Shown in pieces: positions 6,695 through 16,311 of a DNA stretch of 64,000 bases. Made by a program: the position numbers and the translations under genes. The notes beneath the pieces were generated by a model that saw only the letters and a program-made list of their open reading frames with translations, was not told the DNA's origin and searched no databases. Within the stretch, counting starts at the first letter, position 1. Every line of letters starts with the position of its first letter. The stretch covers positions 539,264 to 603,263 of the forward strand of contig CAYFPM010000001.1 in assembly GCA_964345045.1 (NCBI GenBank), in the 5' to 3' direction. This DNA comes from an uncultured Gammaproteobacteria bacterium (lineage in GTDB: Bacteria > Patescibacteriota > Patescibacteriia > Magasanikbacterales > UBA922).

Positions 6695-8137
6695 TTAACC
6701 AAACTTTACAGTATCCCCATAACCAACCATGTCTCCAGAATCTGTTCGATATTTGCCAGAAGTTGGAGTTTCTTTTTCTTCTGCTTCTTCTTCTGCTACT
6801 GGGGCTACTACCCCCTCTATAGGCAAACCCGGAGGAGGTTCGGCTCGCTTGCCTTGAGCTTTTTGGATAAGCGGTGTTTGTACATGAGACATTGGGAAAT
6901 GCCAAATCGTAGCCAATTCTTCTATGTTCATTATAAAAGGACTGCCTCCACTATTTATTTTTCTTTTCTTAAATGCTTTTACCAAAAGTTTTTTTCTATA
7001 AGATACTCGCTTATCCTTTAGGGCATAAGAAGTGGAGACCGTATACTTGGGTACAATCGAATTTGAACTAGGAATATTAAATTGATTAATAGCTCCAATC
7101 ATAGCTTGAACACCACGTTCTGGTCTAAATACTTCTTTTCTGGCCACATACCCCCCTCTAATCTTGGTTTTAAAGCCTATTTTTGCAATTTTGTTTTCCA
7201 TTGCTTCTACTAGCTTTACTTGCCCTGGTGTCATGTAACGTAATTTATTTGGCTCTCCACTATCGGAATCTTTGCTACTACCAGAAGCTTCTGCTACGCC
7301 TCCACCAGAGAGTTGAGCCCCTATTTCTGCCAAACCTTTGGTAATCTCATCTGCCAACAAATTATCTGTAAGCAAATCGACTGGGCTGGAAGAAGAAGAT
7401 TTGGTTTCTTCACCTATAAATTCTTTTATTTTTTTGATAGATTTTTCTTTCCAACTGTTTCCAGTTGGTTGGAGTAGAATTTGAAACCACATCTGCTCAC
7501 CAGGACCTATTCTACTAAAACTTTCCAAAAATGTTCCCATAGGATCTTTTAGAACTGTATCTTTGGAAATACTGTGTTCAAATTCTGTGTAAGAACGAAT
7601 TGGAAAAGCATCTGATTCTGCCAAGCCAAAATCCCCCATCCAAACATCGTGAGTGTCGTTGGGATATTCGGCTGGAATGTCTTTGGTATAGTCTTCTACT
7701 TCGATAATTTCTGCTTCTGGGTATTGGGCATAGATAGAAGCTTCTACCAAATCTCTAAATTTTGCTTCTGTTCTAACCAAAAACTGAATATAACCCTCTA
7801 TACTAACAACCTCAAAACTAAACCAGCGTTGTTTGTAACCTTGTCGAAATCTTTCTGCCAAATTTGGGGACTCGTAAACCCCGGCAATATGAGCAAACAT
7901 TTGTTCGACCGCTTTTGGAGTCTGAACGTTTAAAGCCGGGATATCTACTGCCAAAAGTACCCACTCCCAATTTTCTTTGTATTTTTCTTCTTTGTATTCT
8001 TCTAGATAATAAACTACCAAAAAAGCAAAAACCCAAAACATTAATATCCAACCAAAAAGCACAAAAAGCTGGTAGATTATAGCTCCAGTAGAATTAGTAC
8101 TAAAAAAATTAGCAATGGTATTGAAATCAAACTGCAT
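6695..8137 (-). CDS. conserved hypothetical membrane-anchored protein (N-terminal TM pair, large soluble domain)
   Basis: 480-aa ORF with coherent composition; no family recognised. Confidence 0.55.
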   Translation of the reverse strand: MQFDFNTIANFFSTNSTGAIIYQLFVLFGWILMFWVFAFLVVYYLEEYKEEKYKENWEWVLLAVDIPALNVQTPKAVEQMFAHIAGVYESPNLAERFRQGYKQRWFSFEVVSIEGYIQFLVRTEAKFRDLVEASIYAQYPEAEIIEVEDYTKDIPAEYPNDTHDVWMGDFGLAESDAFPIRSYTEFEHSISKDTVLKDPMGTFLESFSRIGPGEQMWFQILLQPTGNSWKEKSIKKIKEFIGEETKSSSSSPVDLLTDNLLADEITKGLAEIGAQLSGGGVAEASGSSKDSDSGEPNKLRYMTPGQVKLVEAMENKIAKIGFKTKIRGGYVARKEVFRPERGVQAMIGAINQFNIPSSNSIVPKYTVSTSYALKDKRVSYRKKLLVKAFKKRKINSGGSPFIMNIEELATIWHFPMSHVQTPLIQKAQGKRAEPPPGLPIEGVVAPVAEEEAEEKETPTSGKYRTDSGDMVGYGDTVKFG

Positions 8138-8409: not shown

Positions 8410-9426
8410 TTATTTTTTGCCCAATTTTGACCAAACTACCAACAAAGGACTGGCCAAGAATATAGAAGAATAAGTACCAATTATAATACCGATAATCAAG
8501 GTAAGCGCAAAATAATGTACCGAATCACCTCCAAAGATTAAGAGGGATAGTAGTACCAACAAGGTTGTAATAGAAGTATTTAATGATCTTGTCAAAGTTT
8601 GATTTACCCCAATGTTAACTGTTTCAGCAAATTTGTCACTACCTCGTTTTACAAGAGTTTCTCTCACCCGGTCAAACACAACAATAGTATCGTTTACAGA
8701 GTAACCCATAATAGTAAGCAAAGCCACTACAAAGGGAATATCTACCTCTACACCATAAACTTTGCCCAATATAGCAAATATAGCCATAGTAATGGTTACA
8801 TCATGAAATAAAGCTATTACCGCAGTTAGACCATATTTCCAAGATTGTACAGGCTTTGAAACTTTTCTAAAGGCATAACCTACATAAAGAATAATAGCAA
8901 CAATTACAGCAATAGCCGCTGAGATTGATCTACTTCTTAGATTGGCACTTACAGTTGGGCCAATCGTCTCAAATCTTTCTTCTAGGACTCTTGGTTTTTC
9001 TTCTTCGTCTCCGGTGCTGACACCTACACTAATCCCATTTTCTCCAACGATATCTATAGTTTCTACTCCCAAATTATTTTCTTCTATAACGGCAGTATCT
9101 TCTTCGGTAGATTCTTCTGCAATCATAGCGCGCAAGGCAGAAAGAACTGTTTGATGCTCTGTTTCGGACAAAAACTTCATTCGGATAATCATGTTTTTGT
9201 CGTCACTTGGTTGGACTAGTACATTGCCTATATCCAATTTTTCAAGTTCTGTTTGTATTTCTTGGTTAGTTGGTCTCTCTGCTGTGTATTCTACTTCTAG
9301 TAGAGATCCACCGGTAAAATCAATCCCAGGTTTTAAACCTACTGTAAACAAAATTACCAAACTAACTGCAAAAAGCAGACTAGAGACTGTAAATGAAATT
9401 TTTCTTTTTGGGATTATGTTCAACAT
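8410..9426 (-). CDS. secF: protein-export membrane protein SecF
   Basis: SecF-like TM pattern and sequence; immediately downstream of secD. Confidence 0.9.
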   Translation of the reverse strand: MLNIIPKRKISFTVSSLLFAVSLVILFTVGLKPGIDFTGGSLLEVEYTAERPTNQEIQTELEKLDIGNVLVQPSDDKNMIIRMKFLSETEHQTVLSALRAMIAEESTEEDTAVIEENNLGVETIDIVGENGISVGVSTGDEEEKPRVLEERFETIGPTVSANLRSRSISAAIAVIVAIILYVGYAFRKVSKPVQSWKYGLTAVIALFHDVTITMAIFAILGKVYGVEVDIPFVVALLTIMGYSVNDTIVVFDRVRETLVKRGSDKFAETVNIGVNQTLTRSLNTSITTLLVLLSLLIFGGDSVHYFALTLIIGIIIGTYSSIFLASPLLVVWSKLGKK

Positions 9427-9427
9427 A

Positions 9428-11464
9428 TTATTTTCTAGCTCCTAGAAAAAATTTACTTCCTTCTTTTTTGAACCAAGGGGTAACAAATCGTAGCATAAGT
9501 CTGGTAATGGTGATAGCTGAAAACATACTTACCAAAACACCAATAGCCAATGTTACAGCGAAACCTTGTACAAAACTAGAACCAAACCAGATTAACAAAA
9601 CACACGTAATAAGAGTAGAAATATTACCATCGCGAATAGATGTCCAAGCTCTTAAGAAACCTTCTTCTACTGAGGCTTTTAGGCTTTTACCTTCTTTTAG
9701 TTCTTCTTTTAACCTTTCAAAAATAAGCACATTGGCGTCTACAGCCAAACCAATCGACAGGATAAAACCGGCAATTCCAGCCAAAGTCAAAGTAACACCG
9801 ATTAGCTTGAACAAAGCCAAAGTCAAAGTAATATAAAGAGTAAGAGCAACTACAGACAATACACCAGGCAATCTATAGTACAAGACCATAAATAGCATAA
9901 CTAATAGCAAACTAATCATCCCGGCTTTTAAACTTTTTTCTAGAGATTCTGCTCCAAGAGTGGCTCCTACAGACTGCTGAGAAACCAAATCAACTGGCAC
10001 AGGCAAAGCTCCGGCATTTAATCTTTGGGTTAGTAGTCTAGCTTCTGCTATATCAAAATTTCCTGTAATTACAGCTCTACCATCGGTAATTGGTTGTTGT
10101 ACCACAGGCACGCTAATAGCCACTCCATCTAGATAAATAGCAATTGGTTTACCAATATTGGCTTCTGTTAATTGTTTGAACAAATCTTTACCTTCTCCAT
10201 CAAACTGCAAAGAAACTTGCAAAGCTCCGGTATTACCATCGCTAACTACTTCGGCTCTTTCCAATTGTGCCCCAGATAATTCTGTTGGTTTGAATGGATC
10301 TTGTGGAGGCAAAATATCTATTTCGGTTTGTTTTGCAATTACTACAGCAGAGATTTCGTATTCTTTTTGAACTTTACGATCTTTTTTGTAAATAATGTGG
10401 TAACCAAATTCGGTTTCAACCGGTCCAATTATTTGACCAACTTCGGCATTGAACACAGCATCTTCAAAAGCGCCTACCATTACTCCTCTACCAAAATAAC
10501 CCAAGTTTCCACCATCATCTTTGTTGGAATAATCGGTTGAGTGCTCGGCAGCTAAGTCGGCAAAATTATTGGCATTAACTTGCTCAAAAATTTCTTGAGC
10601 TTTGGTTTCGGCTTCTTGTTTGGTATAAAGTGGAGCATCACAATTGGCTGCACCCAAGTAACAAATTAGGATATGGCTAGCTTCTATTTCTTCGCCACCT
10701 TCTCTTTCTCCACCTCTTTTTAGAATAGAAAAGGTATTTTCGGTTTCTACCAATTGGCTAGATAATTCTCCTTCGCTAGCGCTGGCGGCCCAATCAAAAA
10801 TTTCTGGAAATGCCGCTGTTTTATTTATAAAGCCAACATAACCATCGTTGTTTCTACTGGCATCTTCGGAATTTTCTCTGGCAGCTTCTGCAAAATCCAA
10901 TTCTTCATTTTTTATTTTGTCCAAAATATCTTGAGCTTTGCTCTTGGCTTCGGCATTAAAATCGTTCATTTGTTGTTTTTCTTCTTCGGTTAGCTCTCTG
11001 GCCGGTTCGGTATTTTCTTCGCGAAATTCCAAAATTGGGGTTTCTCCAATCATTTCAATCGCTTGGTTTACATCTGTTACACCAGGCAATTCTACAATAA
11101 TTCGGTATTGTTCTCCTACTTTGGTAGTTTGAATACTTGGTTCACCTACTCCCAAACCATTAACCCGTCTTTCTATTACATCTCTTACTCCTTCTACAGC
11201 TTCGGCTCTTTCGGCTGGAGCTACTTGTTTGGTATCGGCTTCGTAGATTAGGTGGGCGCCACCTTGCAAATCTAGTCCTAGGGCAAAATCACTTTCCGGG
11301 ATATTTGGCAAGCCCAAAGAAATAGTATTGTTTACTTTGTCTATCCCTTTATTAAAGAATTTTGGAGCAACGTAAAAACTCGTCACTACCAATAGTGCGA
11401 GTATTCCTACTACCCCCCATCTTATTTTGGCTCTTAATTGTGATTTTAACTTATCTGAAGACAT
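9428..11464 (-). CDS. secD: protein-export membrane protein SecD carrying an inserted parvulin-type PPIase domain
   Basis: SecD N- and C-terminal TM bundles; internal ASHILI...GGNLGYFGRGVMVGAFEDAVF...GPVETEFGYHIIYK is a textbook parvulin signature. Confidence 0.9.
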   Translation of the reverse strand: MSSDKLKSQLRAKIRWGVVGILALLVVTSFYVAPKFFNKGIDKVNNTISLGLPNIPESDFALGLDLQGGAHLIYEADTKQVAPAERAEAVEGVRDVIERRVNGLGVGEPSIQTTKVGEQYRIIVELPGVTDVNQAIEMIGETPILEFREENTEPARELTEEEKQQMNDFNAEAKSKAQDILDKIKNEELDFAEAARENSEDASRNNDGYVGFINKTAAFPEIFDWAASASEGELSSQLVETENTFSILKRGGEREGGEEIEASHILICYLGAANCDAPLYTKQEAETKAQEIFEQVNANNFADLAAEHSTDYSNKDDGGNLGYFGRGVMVGAFEDAVFNAEVGQIIGPVETEFGYHIIYKKDRKVQKEYEISAVVIAKQTEIDILPPQDPFKPTELSGAQLERAEVVSDGNTGALQVSLQFDGEGKDLFKQLTEANIGKPIAIYLDGVAISVPVVQQPITDGRAVITGNFDIAEARLLTQRLNAGALPVPVDLVSQQSVGATLGAESLEKSLKAGMISLLLVMLFMVLYYRLPGVLSVVALTLYITLTLALFKLIGVTLTLAGIAGFILSIGLAVDANVLIFERLKEELKEGKSLKASVEEGFLRAWTSIRDGNISTLITCVLLIWFGSSFVQGFAVTLAIGVLVSMFSAITITRLMLRFVTPWFKKEGSKFFLGARK

Positions 11465-11571: not shown

Positions 11572-12156
11572 ATGGTGACAACAGACCATTCTCAAAAACC
11601 TTTTTCCAAGGAAGAACAGCAACTTTTAGTTGACGCTCTCGTAGATAGAGCCCAAGCAGCAGCAAAAAACGCCAGGTCCTACCGCGACTTCAAAGTCGGT
11701 TGTGCTTTGCAAGGGGTTTACTACAGCGATCACCTTAAAATTTCGGTTCCCAAAGTCTATACAGGTGCGAACCTCAAACCTGTCCAAGGTGGACCAAAAA
11801 TTTGCGCTGAGCAAGGAGCAATCGCGAGTGCCATAGCCGATGGCTGCACGCACATTACAGCTATTGCGGTTGCCGGCGATCCGCTCAACGAACGAGACCC
11901 GGTGAGTGGCAAAACGCCGGAGACACTGCACCCCTGCCCAACTTGCCGTGCCCTGATGGCCGGACTCCCCGAGATCATCTCAAAAGAGACCTTGATCATC
12001 TTGGCGCCCAACGGTGGCCAGCCAAAGGTGATGACTTTTGGAGAGCTATTGGAGTATCATGCTCCTCCAAAAGTAGAACCAACTGTTTGGAACACAGGTA
12101 CGGGAAGTGGCTACGTCTTCGACACAAGAGGCACGAGATGCCAAGCACCCAAGTAA
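11572..12156 (+). CDS. cytidine deaminase family protein (Cdd-like zinc deaminase) with N- and C-terminal extensions; GC-rich island gene
   Basis: CAEQGAIASAIADG...IAVAGD...HPCPTCRALMA matches the Cdd CAE / PCxxC zinc-binding motifs; TTGACT promoter-like element at 11536; high GC. Confidence 0.55.
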   Translation: MVTTDHSQKPFSKEEQQLLVDALVDRAQAAAKNARSYRDFKVGCALQGVYYSDHLKISVPKVYTGANLKPVQGGPKICAEQGAIASAIADGCTHITAIAVAGDPLNERDPVSGKTPETLHPCPTCRALMAGLPEIISKETLIILAPNGGQPKVMTFGELLEYHAPPKVEPTVWNTGTGSGYVFDTRGTRCQAPK

Positions 12157-12171
12157 AACCAAAGTTAAATC

Positions 12172-12258
12172 AAAAATCACCCACACCTCACATTGTAGCC
12201 AATATTTATTGGAAGCAGTGTAAGGAGTTGGGTGGTTTTTGTTTTGTAAAAAAATTGC
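12172..12258 (+). repeat. ~85-nt structured repeat, copy 1 (second copy at 12597-12690), ending ...AGTGYAAGGAGTTGGGTGGTTTTTGTTTTGTAAAA
   Basis: direct comparison of the two copies; each contains an internal palindrome and a terminal GGTGG-TTTTT. Confidence 0.6.
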
Positions 12259-12301
12259 CCTAAGATTTGACGAGCATGACAATTAATTGTAATGTCTTTT
12301 T

Positions 12302-12577
12302 ATGGATAGAATCACAAAAGCCGTTACCTCCAAAGGCCAGCGACGGGCTCTGCGTAAAAAATTCCCAAATCGGAAGATCCAGTTGTTGGGCGGAATTTGG
12401 TACTTCGTCGATGGAGAAAATCCCGAGGAAATCCCCGGCGCTCCCCAAATGACGGGAGCCAAAGGACTCGCCGCTGCCAGACCCGAACGAGGGCAACACA
12501 AGGTAGCGGCTGCCAGGGACGAACACAGTAGGCCCAAACAAGGCTGGGGGGACTACGGTACCAAGTACAGGTACTAG
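12302..12577 (+). CDS. hypothetical basic protein (91 aa), GC-rich, between the two ~85-nt repeats
   Basis: ORF track only; no SD. Confidence 0.25.
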   Translation: MDRITKAVTSKGQRRALRKKFPNRKIQLLGGIWYFVDGENPEEIPGAPQMTGAKGLAAARPERGQHKVAAARDEHSRPKQGWGDYGTKYRY

Positions 12578-12596
12578 TCCAAAATCACACTCCTTT

Positions 12597-12690
12597 TCTG
12601 TGATAAACAAAAACCACCGACATCTCACATTGCAGTTGCAATATCGACTGCAGTGCAAGGAGTTGGGTGGTTTTTGTTTTGTAAAATTTT
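12597..12690 (+). repeat. ~85-nt structured repeat, copy 2
   Basis: AAAAACCACC...GGTGGTTTTT 10-bp stem enclosing a TGCAGT..ACTGCA inner palindrome. Confidence 0.6.
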
Positions 12691-12736: not shown

Positions 12737-13114
12737 TCAAGACCTAGTTGACTCTAAAATATAAAAACAATCTTCAAGGCATTGCAGTACTGTTTCCCTT
12801 TCAAATAAAACTTCATCATTTAAAAACCTTATTACTACATACCCCTGACTACGCAAATGTAATTCTCGCCAAGTGTCATATTCTTTTTGTTCTTCATGAA
12901 TTGGGCCATCGACTTCAATAATAAGCCTCAACTCATGACAATAAAAATCTACAATAAATCTGCCAATGCTAACCTGCCTACGAAACAAATAACCAACTTT
13001 TTTGTTTCGCAATTCTTGCCACAAAACGCATTCAGCTTTAGTATTATTTCTTCTTAAGGATCTTCTTTTAAATTTTAATTCTTCGTCTTTTACATTACGC
13101 GTTCTTTTCTGCAT
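12737..13114 (-). CDS. DUF559 / Vsr-like endonuclease domain protein
   Basis: ECVLWQELRNKKVGYLFRRQ...FIVDFYCHELRLIIEVDGPIHEEQKEYD matches DUF559; flanked by GC-rich palindromes at 12702-12725 and 13149-13169. Confidence 0.8.
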   Translation of the reverse strand: MQKRTRNVKDEELKFKRRSLRRNNTKAECVLWQELRNKKVGYLFRRQVSIGRFIVDFYCHELRLIIEVDGPIHEEQKEYDTWRELHLRSQGYVVIRFLNDEVLFERETVLQCLEDCFYILESTRS

Positions 13115-13187: not shown

Positions 13188-16127
13188 TTATGCCCCATGA
13201 CATTTTTTGAATTTCTTTCCGCTCCCACAGTGACAAGGATCATTTCTACCAATTTTTTTACCAGCTTCATCACGCGGTTTTTGCTCTACCAGACCAGCCT
13301 CGCTAGATGTAGTTTTTTTGGCGCCTTTTAGCGTCATTTTGTCATTGGCCATAATAGTAGGCGCTGCTTGTAAGCCAACCCCCACCTTGAAAAATGAATA
13401 AACTACTTCTTTTTGAATATTAGCTTGCAAAGCGTTAAAAAGATTATAAGTTTCCTTTTTGTATTCTATTAGAGGATCACGTTGGCCATAACCTTGCAAA
13501 CCAATACCGGTACGCAAATAATCAATAGAAATAAGATGTTCCACCCACAAATTATCTATGGCTCTCAAAAGAATACTTTTTTCAATTGATTTAAATACTT
13601 TTTCGGAATCTTCTTCCCCTGGAACATTGGCTTTTACTTTTTCTTGAATATTTTCATACTCTCTTTTGGCAATTGCCATCAAAAACTTCACAATTTTGTC
13701 ACGCTGTTTTACATCGTCAAATTTGTCAGAATCACTAATTTTGTCCATAGACAAAATTTTGTTTTCTTCTTCTTTGGAAAGTGGAAACATGGTTTTGCCC
13801 GTTTCTACAATTTCTTTCATATTCCAATCACTCTTTTTTTCACCTGTTTCACTAGCTACCGGATTGGTATGAAAAGAAACTACAAACTCTATTTCTTGTT
13901 CTATCATGTCTAGGATAACCCCTTTCAAAGTCTTGTATGGCCTACCATCTTCTTTGTGACCTTCTGCCCCAACACCAACCTCGGCCAAAGCCGGGTTCTC
14001 ACCTCTCCCAAGGGGAGAGGTCGACACGACCGTAGGGAGTGCGGGAGAGGGGGAAGAAAGAGCTTTATCCTCTGTAGTCATAACTTCTTTTGCAGTCAAC
14101 TCCAAAATATTTCTACGTCTTTGGTAAATAGCTGCGCGCTGCTTGTTTAATACATCATCGTATTCTAGTAAATGTTTTCTAGTGTCAAAATTATGAGCTT
14201 CTACTTTTTTCTGAGCATTCTCGAGCATTTTGGTAATCATCTTTTGCTCAATAGGCATGTCGTCTGGGACGTTTAATCTTTCCATTACAGATTTCATCCT
14301 GTCGCCCGCAAAAATACGCATAAGGTCATCGTCTGTAGACACAAAAAACTGGGTCTCACCTTTGTCTCCCTGGCGAGCCGAACGACCACGCAACTGATTG
14401 TCGATACGGCGAGAATCGTGACGTTCTGTACCAAGTACAAAAAGTCCACCAGCTTCTAAAACTTTGGTCTCTTCTTCTTTGTTTACCGGGCTACCGCCAA
14501 GTTTGATATCTACCCCACGACCAGCCATGTTGGTAGCGAGAGTGATAGCCCCAGGTCTACCAGCTTGAGCTACGATCTCCCCTTCTCTCTCATGGTTCTT
14601 GGCGTTTAAGGCTTCGTGGGCTATGCCACTAGCTTCTAGATAAGCACTTAGCTCTTCGTTTTTTTCTACAGAAATTGTACCTACCAAAATTGGTTGTCCT
14701 TTGGCTTGGCATTCCTTTATTTTTTCTACAATTGCTTTGAATTTGGCTTTTTCATTTTTGTAAATTCTGTCTGGATGATCGATTCTGGCATCAGGTCTAT
14801 TGGTCGGCATCACTACTACATCTAGTCCATAAATGCTTTGGAACTCTTCTTCTTCGGTAATAGCGGTACCGGTCATTCCAGACAATTTGCTGTACATGCG
14901 AAAAAGATTTTGAAAAGTAATAGTTGCCAAAGTTTGACTTTCGCGTTGGATAGATACATTTTCTTTGGCTTCTATAGCCTGGTGTAGACCTTCGCTGTAG
15001 CGACGACCAGGCATTTTGCGACCAGTAAATTCGTCGATAATTATTACTTCGCCACCTTCTACCACATACTCTTTGTCGCGATTAAACAATACTTCTGCCT
15101 TTAGCGCTTGCTCTAGGTGGTGCACAATACGCATACCACCTTCGGCATAGATATTATCTACGCCCAAAGCTTTTTCCATCTTGGCAATTCCCTCTTCTGT
15201 AAGCGTAGCTGCTCGCATTTTTTCGTCTACATTATAGTCTTCGTTTTCTTTTAGTTGTTTTACCAATTTGGCAAATTGATAGTACTGATCTGCAGCCTCG
15301 GCAGCCGGGGCAGAAATAATAAGAGGTGTTCTGGCTTCATCAATTAAAATAGAATCAACTTCGTCGATAATCGCGTAGCTCATTTCTTCTCCCGGACGCA
15401 TTACCATCTCGGACAGATCTTGCACCATGTTGTCACGCAAGTAATCAAAACCAAACTCGTTGTTGGTTCCATAGGTAATGTCTGCTCTGTAAGCTTCTTG
15501 TCTACTAGCCGGACGCAGGTATTCGTCTTCTACTTTAAAACTACCGGTTTCGTCACGTTCTTTGTCTATTTCTCCACCTTGGGCCTTCTCGGAAGCCAAA
15601 GCGGGTGAAGGGCTCGGTAGTCCACTGTCATAAACAAAAGAAACTCTCTGATTTTGAATAATACCTATAGATAATCCTAGGTAATCATAAATTTGTCCCA
15701 TCCACACAGCGTCACGTTTGGCTAGGTAATCGTTGACTGTAATTACGTGTACTCCTTTGCCAGCTAGAGCATTTAGATAAGTTGGCACAGTCGCTACCAA
15801 GGTTTTACCTTCACCAGTACGCATTTCGGCAATCTTGCCGCGGTGCAAAATAATCCCACCAATAAGCTGCACATCGTAGTGGCGCATGCCAGTAGTACGT
15901 TTGGAAGCTTCGCGCACAGTGGCGAGGGCTTCTACCAAAATATCTTCTAGAGTTTCGCCTTTTTCTAGACGAGCTTTAAATTCTGGTGTTTTGGCTTTTA
16001 GTTCGGCCTCGGATAATTTTTCGTAGTCCTTTTCTAGATTATTAATTTTTTCTACCAATGGTTTTATTTCATTAATTATCTTGGCGTTGGTATCGCCCAC
16101 AAAAATTTTTGATAGTAATTTTCTCAT
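13188..16127 (-). CDS. secA: preprotein translocase ATPase SecA (C-terminal zinc finger CHCGSGKKFKKCHGA); contains GC-rich in-frame inserts
   Basis: DEAD motor motifs and the SecA C-terminus; start set at the internal MRKLLSKIF (SecA-typical) rather than the upstream TTG of the ORF track. Confidence 0.93.
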   Translation of the reverse strand: MRKLLSKIFVGDTNAKIINEIKPLVEKINNLEKDYEKLSEAELKAKTPEFKARLEKGETLEDILVEALATVREASKRTTGMRHYDVQLIGGIILHRGKIAEMRTGEGKTLVATVPTYLNALAGKGVHVITVNDYLAKRDAVWMGQIYDYLGLSIGIIQNQRVSFVYDSGLPSPSPALASEKAQGGEIDKERDETGSFKVEDEYLRPASRQEAYRADITYGTNNEFGFDYLRDNMVQDLSEMVMRPGEEMSYAIIDEVDSILIDEARTPLIISAPAAEAADQYYQFAKLVKQLKENEDYNVDEKMRAATLTEEGIAKMEKALGVDNIYAEGGMRIVHHLEQALKAEVLFNRDKEYVVEGGEVIIIDEFTGRKMPGRRYSEGLHQAIEAKENVSIQRESQTLATITFQNLFRMYSKLSGMTGTAITEEEEFQSIYGLDVVVMPTNRPDARIDHPDRIYKNEKAKFKAIVEKIKECQAKGQPILVGTISVEKNEELSAYLEASGIAHEALNAKNHEREGEIVAQAGRPGAITLATNMAGRGVDIKLGGSPVNKEEETKVLEAGGLFVLGTERHDSRRIDNQLRGRSARQGDKGETQFFVSTDDDLMRIFAGDRMKSVMERLNVPDDMPIEQKMITKMLENAQKKVEAHNFDTRKHLLEYDDVLNKQRAAIYQRRRNILELTAKEVMTTEDKALSSPSPALPTVVSTSPLGRGENPALAEVGVGAEGHKEDGRPYKTLKGVILDMIEQEIEFVVSFHTNPVASETGEKKSDWNMKEIVETGKTMFPLSKEEENKILSMDKISDSDKFDDVKQRDKIVKFLMAIAKREYENIQEKVKANVPGEEDSEKVFKSIEKSILLRAIDNLWVEHLISIDYLRTGIGLQGYGQRDPLIEYKKETYNLFNALQANIQKEVVYSFFKVGVGLQAAPTIMANDKMTLKGAKKTTSSEAGLVEQKPRDEAGKKIGRNDPCHCGSGKKFKKCHGA

Positions 16128-16311
16128 AGGTTTAAAAGCCTGCCTGCCGGTAGGCAGGGCTAAAAAAGCTTGCAAGGCTGGCTGATTTATAATAGTTAAC
16201 TGGACTAGCTTAGCACTTTTTTGGCTCTGTGTCTATGGGTAGAAAAATTACTTTACCCTTGACAAAGTGGCTTATTTATGATAAAAATTTGTCAGGAGGC
16301 TCGTCAATTAC

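What the first reader, a model, noticed from the sequence alone, without database searches (positions are those of the whole stretch)
10357..10882. SecD with an embedded parvulin-type peptidyl-prolyl isomerase domain
Inside the SecD periplasmic region lies ...ASHILICYLGAANCDAPLYTKQEAETKAQEIFEQVNANNFADLAAEHSTDYSNKDDGGNLGYFGRGVMVGAFEDAVFNAEVGQIIGPVETEFGYHIIYKKD... This matches the rotamase (PpiC/PrsA/SurA) signature, including the HIL and FGYHII motifs. It is preceded by a second, degenerate parvulin-like segment. The arrangement fuses a foldase to the translocon accessory protein, which would put PrsA-like chaperone activity at the exit of the Sec channel.
Basis: partly seen in the sequence, partly recalled or inferred. 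Interest (0 to 1): 0.6.

Follow-up and report, generated by a model that had tools for sequence, protein, structure and literature searches.

The report
SecD translocase with built-in prolyl isomerase
In this uncultivated CPR/Patescibacteria bacterium, the SecD protein-export subunit carries two parvulin-type prolyl-isomerase domains, one apparently nested in the other, on its outward-facing P1 domain; the fusion is common in several CPR lineages, I found no paper describing it, and it would tie a folding enzyme to the exit of the secretion channel.

Summary
The gene lies on the minus strand (9428-11464, 678 aa) and is a genuine SecD (TIGR01129 393.9 bits, cut-off 244.4), followed directly by secF. 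A ~228-aa insert (aa 150-377) sits between the P1 base strand "ILEFR" and the P1 head, where Thermus SecDF has ~25 residues.

The insert is two parvulin units (Pfam Rotamase E 4.8e-38).
- **Unit B** (aa 258-362) has canonical order and keeps the catalytic set: H264 and H356 in 172 and 173 of 176 relatives, D/E311 in 173, G354 in all. It also has a perfectly covarying Cys268/Cys275 pair.
- **Unit A** (aa 156-252) is degenerate and has lost both histidines.

AlphaFold secondary structure, residue covariation and comparison with single-parvulin SecDs indicate that A is circularly permuted. Its first strand (aa 367-378) comes after B, so B is nested inside A rather than placed in tandem.

The architecture recurs across Magasanik-, Uhr- and Moranbacteria, Peribacterales and Gracilibacteria. 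It is labelled only "SecD", and six literature searches found no description.

Most likely function: a PPIase and substrate-binding module tethered to the moving P1 head, acting on chains leaving SecYEG. This function is inferred. It is not PrsA, SurA or PpiD, because no chaperone core domain is present.

The parts
9428..11464 (-). secD ORF, 678 aa (stop codon included)
   Evidence: ORF list. TIGR01129 secD 393.9 bits against a cut-off of 244.4. Pfam SecD_1st, SecDF_P1_head and SecD_SecF_C. Best PDB matches are the SecDF structures 3AQP, 5XAN and 5XAM.
11321..11464 (-). N-terminus and first transmembrane helix (aa 1-48)
   Evidence: AF2 helices at aa 2-32 and 34-48. Hydrophobic stretch WGVVGILALLVVTSFYV.
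11015..11296 (-). P1 base, N-terminal half (aa 57-150), ending in the strand PILEFRE
   Evidence: Aligns to T. thermophilus SecDF residues 30-117. Pfam SecD_1st at aa 91-151.
10709..10999 (-). Parvulin unit A (aa 156-252): helices a1-a4 and strands b2-b4 only. It is degenerate: 'TFSIL' replaces 'GYHII' and no N-terminal 'HIL' strand is present.
   Evidence: Rotamase HMM 57.0 bits, covering only HMM positions 10-94, so b1 is missing. 30% identity to unit B. Position 246 is N, E, S or D in most of 176 relatives and His in only 7. AF2 pLDDT about 90.
10379..10693 (-). Parvulin unit B (aa 258-362): canonical-order, apparently intact PPIase domain. H264 is at nt 10673-10675 and H356 at nt 10397-10399; D311, L321, M329, F333 and G354 are also present.
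   Evidence: Rotamase HMM positions 1-96/97, 82.4 bits alone. Aligns to the SurA parvulin domains, PrsA and PpiC in the PDB. H264 172/176, H356 173/176, D/E311 173/176, G354 176/176.
10640..10663 (-). Cys268-x6-Cys275 pair in the b1-a1 loop of unit B (probable disulfide)
   Evidence: Invariant in the 120 closest homologs. Across 176 relatives: both Cys in 147, neither in 29, only one in 0. Top-ranked covarying pair.
10331..10366 (-). Post-B strand KEYEISAVVIAK (aa 367-378), inferred to be the displaced b1 strand of unit A
   Evidence: AF2 DSSP shows two unbroken 24-residue strands, 244-267 and 354-377. Y209 (b2 of A) with E370 is the second-ranked covarying pair; G251-S372 and S246-A373 are in the top 40. 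Relatives keep an 'xSRIL'/'SHIF'/'RHILI' pattern here.
9998..10285 (-). P1 head subdomain (aa 394-489)
   Evidence: Pfam SecDF_P1_head 94.9 bits. Query aa 378-659 align to Thermus SecDF residues 143-423.
9470..9997 (-). Transmembrane bundle TM2-TM6 (aa 490-665), including D576 (nt 9737-9739) aligned with Thermus D340
   Evidence: Pfam SecD_SecF_C. Alignment to 3AQP. D576 is invariant in 120 homologs. AF2 helices.
8410..9426 (-). secF, 338 aa, starting immediately after the secD stop codon (same operon by position)
   Evidence: TIGR00966 270.8 bits against a cut-off of 160. Pfam SecD_SecF_C and Sec_GG.

Best explanation
This is the SecD subunit of the SecDF export motor of a Magasanikbacteria-like CPR bacterium. 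A two-domain parvulin module has been grafted into the connection between its P1 base and its mobile P1 head.

Unit B is a complete parvulin with the catalytic His/Asp/His set and the hydrophobic proline pocket, and probably a stabilising disulfide. Unit A is a circularly permuted parvulin that has lost its catalytic histidines. B is nested in A's b4-to-b1 hairpin, and the two are joined by a long two-stranded beta ribbon.

P1 lies outside the membrane next to the SecYEG exit, and in the accepted model it binds and pulls emerging chains using the proton-motive force. The module is therefore held at 1:1 stoichiometry where unfolded secretory proteins appear. Unit B most likely catalyses prolyl cis/trans isomerisation of these chains. 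Unit A most likely serves as a non-catalytic binding or scaffold domain, as SurA's first parvulin domain does.

What is shown: domain identities, the insertion site, outside topology by homology, conservation of catalytic residues, and wide recurrence in CPR.

What is inferred: enzymatic activity, action on Sec substrates, the nested topology (from AF2 secondary structure and covariation, without coordinates), and replacement of a stand-alone PrsA-type foldase.
For: - SecD identity: TIGR01129 393.9 against 244.4; adjacent secF; D576 aligned to Thermus D340.
- Rotamase HMM E 4.8e-38, located between SecD_1st and P1_head.
- Insertion site: query aa 57-149 align to Tt 30-117 and aa 378-659 to Tt 143-423. 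Related CPR SecDs have only 9-50 residues at this site.
- Catalytic residues of B are conserved in 172-176 of 176 relatives. B is nearly as conserved as the SecD core (0.72 against 0.81 mean column identity).
- B aligns to the SurA, PrsA and PpiC parvulins in the PDB.
- Cys268/Cys275 covary perfectly, which fits an extracytoplasmic location.
- Recurrence: all 120 closest homologs, all 120 homologs of a Moranbacteria single-parvulin SecD, and 98 of the 150 best-scoring 50%-identity cluster representatives carry parvulin together with SecD domains. Of the 80 best loci kept from the species-representative genome scan, 15 carry the fusion.
- Nesting and permutation: AF2 strands 244-267 and 354-377; the b4-turn-'ASHILF' hairpin in P0143; the re-permutation test, Rotamase 71.9 to 81.1 bits with HMM coverage 10-96 to 1-96; covariation triads Y323-E261-K364 and Y209-E370/S372-G251.
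- Independent precedent for parvulin chaperones working at SecDF: SurA binds the SecYEG-SecDF-YidC holo-translocon in vitro, and AlphaFold models place its parvulin domains on the SecDF P1 head (PMC9987972). Mycoplasma PrsA-like PPIase proteins crosslink to SecD and form a dome over the translocon (bioRxiv 10.1101/2024.09.05.611430; 10.1101/2025.04.25.650208). SecDF P1 pulling model: PMC6028853.
Against: - There are no biochemical data.
- In PrsA, PPIase-dead mutants barely affect secretion or growth (PMC12445088), so conserved catalytic residues do not prove that catalysis is the selected function.
- No SurA-N or PrsA-NC chaperone domain is present.
I cannot show that B's active site faces the SecY exit, or that the module moves with the head.
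- Many close CPR SecDs lack the insert (49 of 150 representatives), and the architectures are interleaved on a crude tree. The module is therefore dispensable for SecD function as such.
- Absence of a stand-alone PrsA in this genome was not tested beyond the 64-kb window.
Confidence: 0.7

Rival explanations
1. The module is mainly a holdase or docking platform. It binds unfolded chains, or recruits other envelope factors, at the P1 head, and prolyl isomerase catalysis is irrelevant, as argued for PrsA's parvulin domain.
For: - PPIase-dead PrsA still supports secretion and growth (PMC12445088).
- Unit A has lost both catalytic histidines yet is retained with its own conserved residues (S199, S203, N205, N206, G208, Y209, W225).
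- AlphaFold models of E. coli SurA dock its parvulin domains on the SecDF P1 head (PMC9987972).
Against: Unit B keeps the full catalytic set in at least 172 of 176 diverse relatives. The Moranbacteria single-unit form keeps both histidines invariant in 120 sequences. A pure binding domain would be expected to drift as unit A did.
Confidence: 0.2
2. The insert acts on SecD itself. It would be a structural spacer or a regulator of the base-head hinge, for example tuning the F/I-form swing or acting on a proline within SecD/SecF, rather than on secreted substrates.
For: - The insertion point is exactly the base-to-head connection.
- This site is a hotspot of variable length, from 9 to more than 470 residues among relatives.
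Against: - A spacer role does not explain why a parvulin fold with an intact active site is what is kept across lineages.
- Insert-less relatives show that the hinge works without it.
Confidence: 0.07
3. Artefact: a chimeric assembly, or a frameshift-fused secD and ppiC gene.
For: None found.
Against: - A single uninterrupted ORF.
- The identical protein occurs on several independent contigs.
- Hundreds of homologs from independent metagenomes share the architecture.
- The parvulin lies inside the P1 domain, with SecD sequence on both sides.
Confidence: 0.01

Closest known systems
Canonical SecD/SecDF (T. thermophilus SecDF, PDB 3AQP/5YHF; D. radiodurans 5XAN)
   Same: P1 base, P1 head, six-helix RND-like bundle, conserved TM Asp (D576 aligned to Tt D340) and an adjacent SecF. 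TIGR01129 is passed.
   Different: About 228 extra residues (two parvulin units) sit at the base-to-head connection, where Thermus has about 25 residues.
PrsA (Gram-positive lipoprotein foldase; PDB 4WO7, 6VJ4, 6VJ6)
   Same: An extracytoplasmic, membrane-tethered parvulin PPIase of the non-phospho type (S-x-D, FGYHII). In PrsA too, the parvulin domain is an insertion into another domain (PMC12445088). Sequence hits to PrsA parvulin domains reach E 1e-18.
   Different: No lipobox or lipoprotein anchor, and no N/C-terminal SurA-like chaperone domain. NCBIfam PrsA models score 55-75 bits against cut-offs of 343-361. The host domain here is SecD P1.
SurA (E. coli periplasmic chaperone, PDB 1M5Y)
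   Same: Two parvulin domains, which by my own knowledge are one inactive (P1) and one active (P2). It is the best PDB sequence match for the insert (E 2.4e-20). SurA binds the SecDF-containing holo-translocon, and AlphaFold models dock its parvulin domains on the SecDF P1 head (PMC9987972).
   Different: SurA is soluble and has an N/C chaperone core, and its parvulins are tandem and canonical. Here the association with SecD is covalent, there is no core domain, and the units appear nested and permuted. NF008038 scores 58.9 against a cut-off of 394.
PpiD/YfgM (E. coli inner-membrane chaperone at SecYEG)
   Same: A membrane-anchored, parvulin-containing protein positioned at the Sec translocon (PMC9643414 abstract).
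   Different: PpiD is a separate single-pass protein with chaperone domains, and by my own knowledge its parvulin domain is catalytically inactive. NF008054 scores 50.3 against a cut-off of 493.
Mycoplasma pneumoniae Mdp444/436/489 'dome' (PrsA-like PPIC proteins on SecYEG-SecDF)
   Same: A genome-reduced bacterium that places PPIC-type folding domains directly over the Sec exit, with contacts to SecD(F). Only one PPIC domain keeps the catalytic residues and the others are degenerate (bioRxiv 10.1101/2025.04.25.650208; 10.1101/2024.09.05.611430).
   Different: There the PPIases are separate lipoproteins forming a non-covalent trimeric dome with SurA-like domains. Here the PPIase is part of the SecD polypeptide.

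Membership tests
SecD (TIGR01129; Pfam SecD_1st / SecDF_P1_head / SecD_SecF_C) | Family HMM above the curated cut-off | tested here: met
   TIGR01129 393.9 bits against 244.4. The three Pfam SecD models score 62-95 bits against cut-offs of 20.5-27.
SecD (TIGR01129; Pfam SecD_1st / SecDF_P1_head / SecD_SecF_C) | N-terminal TM helix, large extracytoplasmic P1 domain (base and head), then a five-helix C-terminal bundle | tested here: met
   AF2 secondary structure. Alignment to 3AQP over base, head and TM regions. Foldseek top hits are SecDF structures.
SecD (TIGR01129; Pfam SecD_1st / SecDF_P1_head / SecD_SecF_C) | Conserved membrane-embedded Asp of the proton path (Thermus D340; its role is from my own knowledge of Tsukazaki et al. 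2011) | tested here: met
   D576 in 'AVDANV' aligns with Tt 'AVDGNV' D340 and is invariant in 120 homologs.
SecD (TIGR01129; Pfam SecD_1st / SecDF_P1_head / SecD_SecF_C) | Partner SecF encoded adjacently or fused | tested here: met
   secF at 8410-9426 directly downstream, TIGR00966 270.8 bits against 160. The same order is seen in related loci.
SecD (TIGR01129; Pfam SecD_1st / SecDF_P1_head / SecD_SecF_C) | PMF-dependent stimulation of protein export | not testable with these tools
   Requires biochemistry or genetics.
Parvulin-type PPIase (Pfam PF00639 / PF13616, PpiC domain) | Family HMM above the cut-off | tested here: met
   Whole protein 130.5 bits against 21.7. Unit B alone 82.4 bits over HMM 1-96; unit A alone 57.0 bits over HMM 10-94.
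Parvulin-type PPIase (Pfam PF00639 / PF13616, PpiC domain) | Catalytic His...Asp/Cys...His set plus the Leu/Met/Phe proline pocket (residue roles are from my own knowledge of Pin1, Par10 and PrsA) | tested here: met
   Unit B: H264, D311, H356, L321, M329, F333, aligned to the SurA parvulins and conserved in 172-176 of 176 relatives. Unit A does NOT meet this: S246 (N in most relatives) and V375 (R in most relatives) replace the histidines.
Parvulin-type PPIase (Pfam PF00639 / PF13616, PpiC domain) | Canonical b-a3-b-a-b2 fold order | tested here: inconclusive
   Unit B matches the canonical order (HMM 1-96; AF2 elements). Unit A and the Moranbacteria single units lack the N-terminal strand and appear circularly permuted. 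This is judged from secondary structure and covariation only, because no coordinates were available.
Parvulin-type PPIase (Pfam PF00639 / PF13616, PpiC domain) | Measurable peptidyl-prolyl cis/trans isomerase activity | not testable with these tools
   Requires an enzyme assay.
PrsA foldase | Lipoprotein anchor, N/C-terminal SurA-like chaperone domain flanking the parvulin, and the family HMM | tested here: not met
   NF002827 75.2 against 343, NF002846 55.2 against 361. These matches cover only aa ~285-382, the parvulin part. Pfam finds no SurA_N-type domain. The domain lies inside SecD and not behind a lipobox.
SurA | N-terminal chaperone domain, two tandem parvulins and a C-terminal helix; family HMM | tested here: not met
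   NF008038 58.9 bits against 394. Only the parvulin parts align.
PpiD | Single N-terminal TM anchor, chaperone domains and one parvulin; family HMM | tested here: not met
   NF008054 50.3 bits against 493.

The most novel reading that the evidence does not exclude
The module is the only extracytoplasmic foldase of these minimal CPR cells and is mechanically coupled to the proton-driven swing of the SecDF P1 head. Each PMF-powered stroke would then hand the emerging chain to, and strip it from, the parvulin site. That would make it an energy-coupled folding catalyst in a compartment that has no ATP. The fusion would also be Rosetta-stone evidence that parvulin chaperones dock on the SecDF P1 head in bacteria generally. 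The circularly permuted, nested parvulin would be a new topology for this fold.
Probability: 0.15. Interest if true: 0.8.

Novelty: new variant of a known kind. Interest (0 to 1): 0.55.

Why it matters
How proteins leaving SecYEG are handed to folding factors, and what the SecDF P1 head actually does, are both still debated. Recent work proposes non-covalent contacts between parvulin chaperones and SecDF, for SurA in E. coli and for the PrsA-like dome in Mycoplasma.

A natural, widely conserved covalent fusion of parvulin domains at the base-to-head connection of P1 is independent evolutionary support for that coupling. It also offers a single-polypeptide system for structural and biochemical study of translocation-coupled folding.

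The fusion shows how genome-reduced CPR bacteria may economise on envelope proteostasis. The parvulin arrangement, permuted and nested with a covarying Cys pair, may be of interest to protein-fold evolution. Current annotation ("protein translocase subunit SecD") hides all of this.

Tried and rejected
- **Plus-strand reading of the finding's coordinates.** It gives only stops; the gene is on the minus strand.
- **Other parvulin genes in the window.** My own HMMs, run on all ORFs of at least 50 aa, found none. 64 kb cannot settle whether the genome lacks prsA.
- **Genome-wide prsA survey.** Not possible, because only about 6-kb flanks of related loci are retrievable.
- **GTDB genome scan.** Absence outside CPR is not established.
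- **Two flavobacterial hits with apparently long matches (L031, L049).** These turned out to be about 705-aa proteins with a single parvulin domain and no SecD domains.
- **afdb50 fold search.** Unavailable.
- **His/His co-occurrence in unit A as a test of nesting.** Uninformative, because A is degenerate in almost all sequences.
- **Re-permuting unit A of the window protein.** No HMM gain (57.0 to 56.8 bits), because its displaced strand has lost the HIL motif. The same test worked for the Moranbacteria unit.
- **Neighbour-joining tree of SecD cores.** Star-like, with insert types interleaved. I draw no conclusion on single or multiple origin.
- **Literature.** No paper describing a SecD-parvulin fusion or a circularly permuted parvulin. 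The library lacks most subscription journals, so this is not proof of absence.
- **Rfam and tRNA scans of the window.** Nothing relevant.
- **Reference parvulin sequences.** The conclusions rest instead on the PDB-sequence alignments.
Full report
**1. The observation**

The finding's coordinates are right, but the gene runs on the minus strand. The plus-strand translation of 10357-10882 is broken by stops. The reverse complement encodes aa 195-369 of a 678-aa ORF at 9428-11464, and this contains the quoted ASHILICY...FGYHIIYKKD sequence.

Pfam results for the whole protein:
- SecD_1st at aa 91-151.
- Rotamase PF00639, E 4.8e-38, 130.5 bits against a cut-off of 21.7, two stretches, best at aa 264-361 covering HMM 1-96/97.
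- SecDF_P1_head at aa 394-489.
- SecD_SecF_C at aa 493-658.

NCBIfam TIGR01129 (secD) scores 393.9 bits against 244.4. The next gene downstream (8410-9426) is secF, TIGR00966 270.8 against 160. The identical protein occurs on several independent contigs.

**2. It is an insertion in P1**

Against T. thermophilus SecDF (3AQP), query aa 57-149 align with residues 30-117 and query aa 378-659 with residues 143-423. About 228 residues (150-377) therefore stand where Thermus has about 25. This lies between the last base strand ("PILEFRE") and the start of the P1 head.

Among the closest 50%-identity cluster representatives, many SecDs have only 9-50 residues between "LEF(K/R)E" and "PT.L(S/T)G" at the same place. 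This site is a length-variable hotspot. The rest of the protein is an ordinary SecD. It includes D576, which is aligned with Thermus D340 and invariant in 120 homologs; the proton-path role of that Asp is from my own knowledge. Foldseek's top PDB hits are SecDF structures, with SurA appearing lower for the insert.

**3. Anatomy of the insert**

Unit B (aa 258-362) matches the Rotamase HMM end to end (82.4 bits alone). It aligns residue by residue with the SurA parvulin domains, PrsA and PpiC from the PDB.

By the established parvulin active-site description (Pin1 H59/C113/H157 with pocket L122/M130/F134; my own knowledge), B has H264, D311, H356, L321, M329 and F333. In 176 two-unit relatives, H264 is kept in 172, H356 in 173, D/E311 in 173 and G354 in 176. 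B's mean column identity among 120 homologs is 0.72, close to the 0.81 of the SecD core.

B also has Cys268-x6-Cys275 just after its first strand. Both Cys are present in 147 sequences, neither in 29, and never only one. It is the top covarying pair. This is best read as a disulfide, which fits an extracytoplasmic location.

Unit A (aa 156-252) is a real but degenerate parvulin. It scores 57.0 bits (E 3.9e-15) and is 30% identical to B. "TFSIL" stands in place of "GYHII", and position 246 is N, E, S or D in most relatives. The HMM match starts only at position 10, so A has no N-terminal "HIL" strand.

**4. Nested, not tandem (my inference)**

The AF2 model has mean pLDDT 84 (about 90 over the insert) and pTM 0.45. 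It shows two unbroken 24-residue strands, 244-267 and 354-377.

If H264 and H356 are neighbours, as a parvulin active site requires, the antiparallel register i+j of about 620 maps 244-267 onto 353-376. That is the observed range. The two strands would then form one long ribbon. Its upper half is b1/b4 of unit B. Its lower half is b4 of unit A paired with aa 367-378 ("KEYEISAVVIAK"), which serves as A's displaced b1.

Four independent lines support this:

- **Single-parvulin SecDs.** Those of Moranbacteria read a1...FGYHIIKK-turn-ASHILF, then the head. Their Rotamase match also starts at HMM position 10. Both histidines (H229, H249) are invariant in 120 sequences.
- **AF2 of one such protein.** The model gives a b4-turn-b1 hairpin at pLDDT about 90.
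- **Re-permutation test.** Moving the "ASHILF" strand to the N-terminus in silico raises Rotamase from 71.9 to 81.1 bits and restores HMM coverage from 10-96 to 1-96. Rotamase_3 rises from 92.8 to 101.7 bits.
- **Covariation.** MI-APC was run on 176 sequences (Neff about 142, no phylogenetic correction). Y209 (b2 of A) with E370 (post-B strand) ranks second, and E261 (b1 of B) with Y323 (b2 of B) ranks eighth. E259/E261-K364, G251-S372 and S246-A373 are in the top 40, all at i+j = 619-625.

The alternative of two self-contained hairpin units would place H264 in A and H356 in B, each opposite a non-histidine. That fits poorly with their joint near-invariance. I had no access to coordinates, so this remains a well-supported inference and not a demonstration.

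**5. Distribution**

- All 120 closest homologs (62-100% identity) carry Rotamase plus SecD Pfam domains. Where named, they are [quoted passage not shown].
- An exhaustive HMMER search of 1.84 billion cluster representatives with aa 57-500 gave 356 hits at E<=1e-30. Among the best 150, 98 combine a parvulin unit with SecD domains according to my own HMMs.
- The types are: two-unit (about 680 aa); single-unit (about 560-590 aa); long inserts (about 775-940 aa, some with further units); and SecD-SecF fusions carrying the insert (1015-1119 aa).
- Names recovered: Moranbacteria for the single-unit type and Peribacterales for a long SecDF.
- In the species-representative genome scan, names were Magasanik- and Uhrbacteria, Parcubacteria, Gracilibacteria and "Patescibacteria group".
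- Some MAGs are labelled Gammaproteobacteria or Binatia. All of them share a secD-secF gene pair with the window, and most also have secA and/or the DUF8128 gene alongside, at 45-62% SecD identity. I take these labels to be wrong.
- The other 65 loci of that scan are ordinary stand-alone parvulin-domain proteins, PrsA-, PpiD- or SurA-sized, without SecD domains.
- The scan was truncated, so absence outside CPR is not proven.
- 49 of the 150 representatives lack any parvulin unit between P1 base and head. A crude NJ tree interleaves the types, so gains and losses cannot be resolved here.

**6. Mechanism**

In the accepted model, SecDF's P1 domain binds the chain emerging from SecYEG and moves it away from the pore using the proton gradient (review PMC6028853).

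The module is attached where base and head join. It is outside the membrane and present at one copy per SecD. The best-supported reading is a translocon-tethered PPIase (unit B) with a non-catalytic companion domain (unit A) acting on emerging secretory proteins.

Precedents for exactly this partnership exist in non-covalent form:
- SurA binds the SecYEG-SecDF-YidC holo-translocon. All five AlphaFold models of SurA with SecDF place its two parvulin domains on the SecDF P1 head (PMC9987972).
- PpiD/YfgM sits at SecYEG (PMC9643414).
- In Mycoplasma pneumoniae, PrsA-like PPIC proteins crosslink to SecD and form a dome over the translocon, with only one PPIC domain catalytically intact.

The main caveat is that PPIase-dead PrsA still supports secretion and growth (PMC12445088). 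A binding-only role is therefore the main rival. A purely structural or regulatory role at the hinge is a weaker one.

**7. Comparison and membership**

The protein is a member of SecD, and it contains parvulin (PpiC-type) domains. It is not PrsA, SurA or PpiD. Their family models score 50-75 bits against cut-offs of 343-493 and match only the parvulin part. No SurA-N or PrsA-NC chaperone domain is detected.

It works most like a covalent version of the SurA-SecDF or Mycoplasma dome-SecDF arrangement.

**8. Novelty and verdict**

The Pfam composition is visible in public precomputed annotations, but the proteins are named only "SecD". Six full-text searches found no description of a SecD-parvulin fusion or of a circularly permuted parvulin. 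The library is incomplete, so this is not proof.

I rate it a new variant of a known kind. It is of moderate to good interest to secretion and chaperone specialists (0.55).

Noticed in passing
window 6695-8137 (-); also L001, L002, L003, L004, L012, L013, L014: A 480-aa protein with an N-terminal hydrophobic segment (Pfam DUF8128) lies just downstream of secF. A homolog keeps that position in seven related CPR loci (32-57% identity). The conserved order secD-secF-DUF8128, often with secA upstream, hints at a functional link to secretion.
   Followed up: partly
window 8965-9129 (-), SecF aa 100-154: SecF carries an acidic, low-complexity extra segment (AMIAEESTEEDTAVIEENNLGVETIDIVGENGISVGVSTGDEEEKPRVLEERFET) in its periplasmic P4 region. 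The SecF model TIGR00966 spans 330 residues here against a 279-position profile.
   Followed up: no
window 15597-15614 and 14037-14054 (-), SecA aa 188-193 and 708-713: SecA (13188-16175) contains two in-frame, locally GC-rich extra segments that both include the hexapeptide SPSPAL. In addition, the listed TTG start probably over-extends the ORF: MRKLLSKIF at aa 17 looks like the real N-terminus.
   Followed up: no
window ~11700-12600: A GC-rich island (0.49-0.585, against about 0.37-0.39 for the surrounding genome) covers the dCMP/cytidine-deaminase-like gene (11572-12156, +) and an apparently non-coding stretch with only spurious-looking ORFs. A DUF559 endonuclease-like gene follows at 12737-13114. 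This may be horizontally acquired. No Rfam family reaches threshold there.
   Followed up: partly
whole window 1-64000: There are no tRNA or tmRNA genes and no Rfam match at gathering threshold in 64 kb.
   Followed up: yes
L001, L002, L010, L013 ('uncultured Gammaproteobacteria bacterium'), L004 ('Candidatus Binatia bacterium'): These public MAG records carry two-parvulin SecDs that are 45-62% identical to the window protein, with secA and/or secF (and in four of the five, DUF8128) in the same local order. Their taxonomic labels are very likely wrong; they look like Patescibacteria.
   Followed up: partly
representatives P0174, P0229, P0164, P0170, P0241, P0199 (insert-less CPR SecDs): Several insert-less relatives have a 30-45-residue helical linker at the insertion site, for example 'EERPEEETKQILEKIKELEGKTFEEIQ'. 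It resembles the first helix and the 'G.DF' turn of the parvulin unit and may be a vestige of a lost parvulin domain.
   Followed up: no
representatives P0207, P0188, P0158, P0175, P0186, P0187, P0215, P0221, P0260, P0219, P0256: Peribacterales/Gracilibacteria-like SecDs and SecDFs have inserts of 340-470 residues. These contain extra parvulin-like repeats before the intact unit and an additional 50-60-residue helical segment after it. Some have two Pfam Rotamase stretches whose best match starts at HMM position 9-10, which suggests permuted units again.
   Followed up: partly
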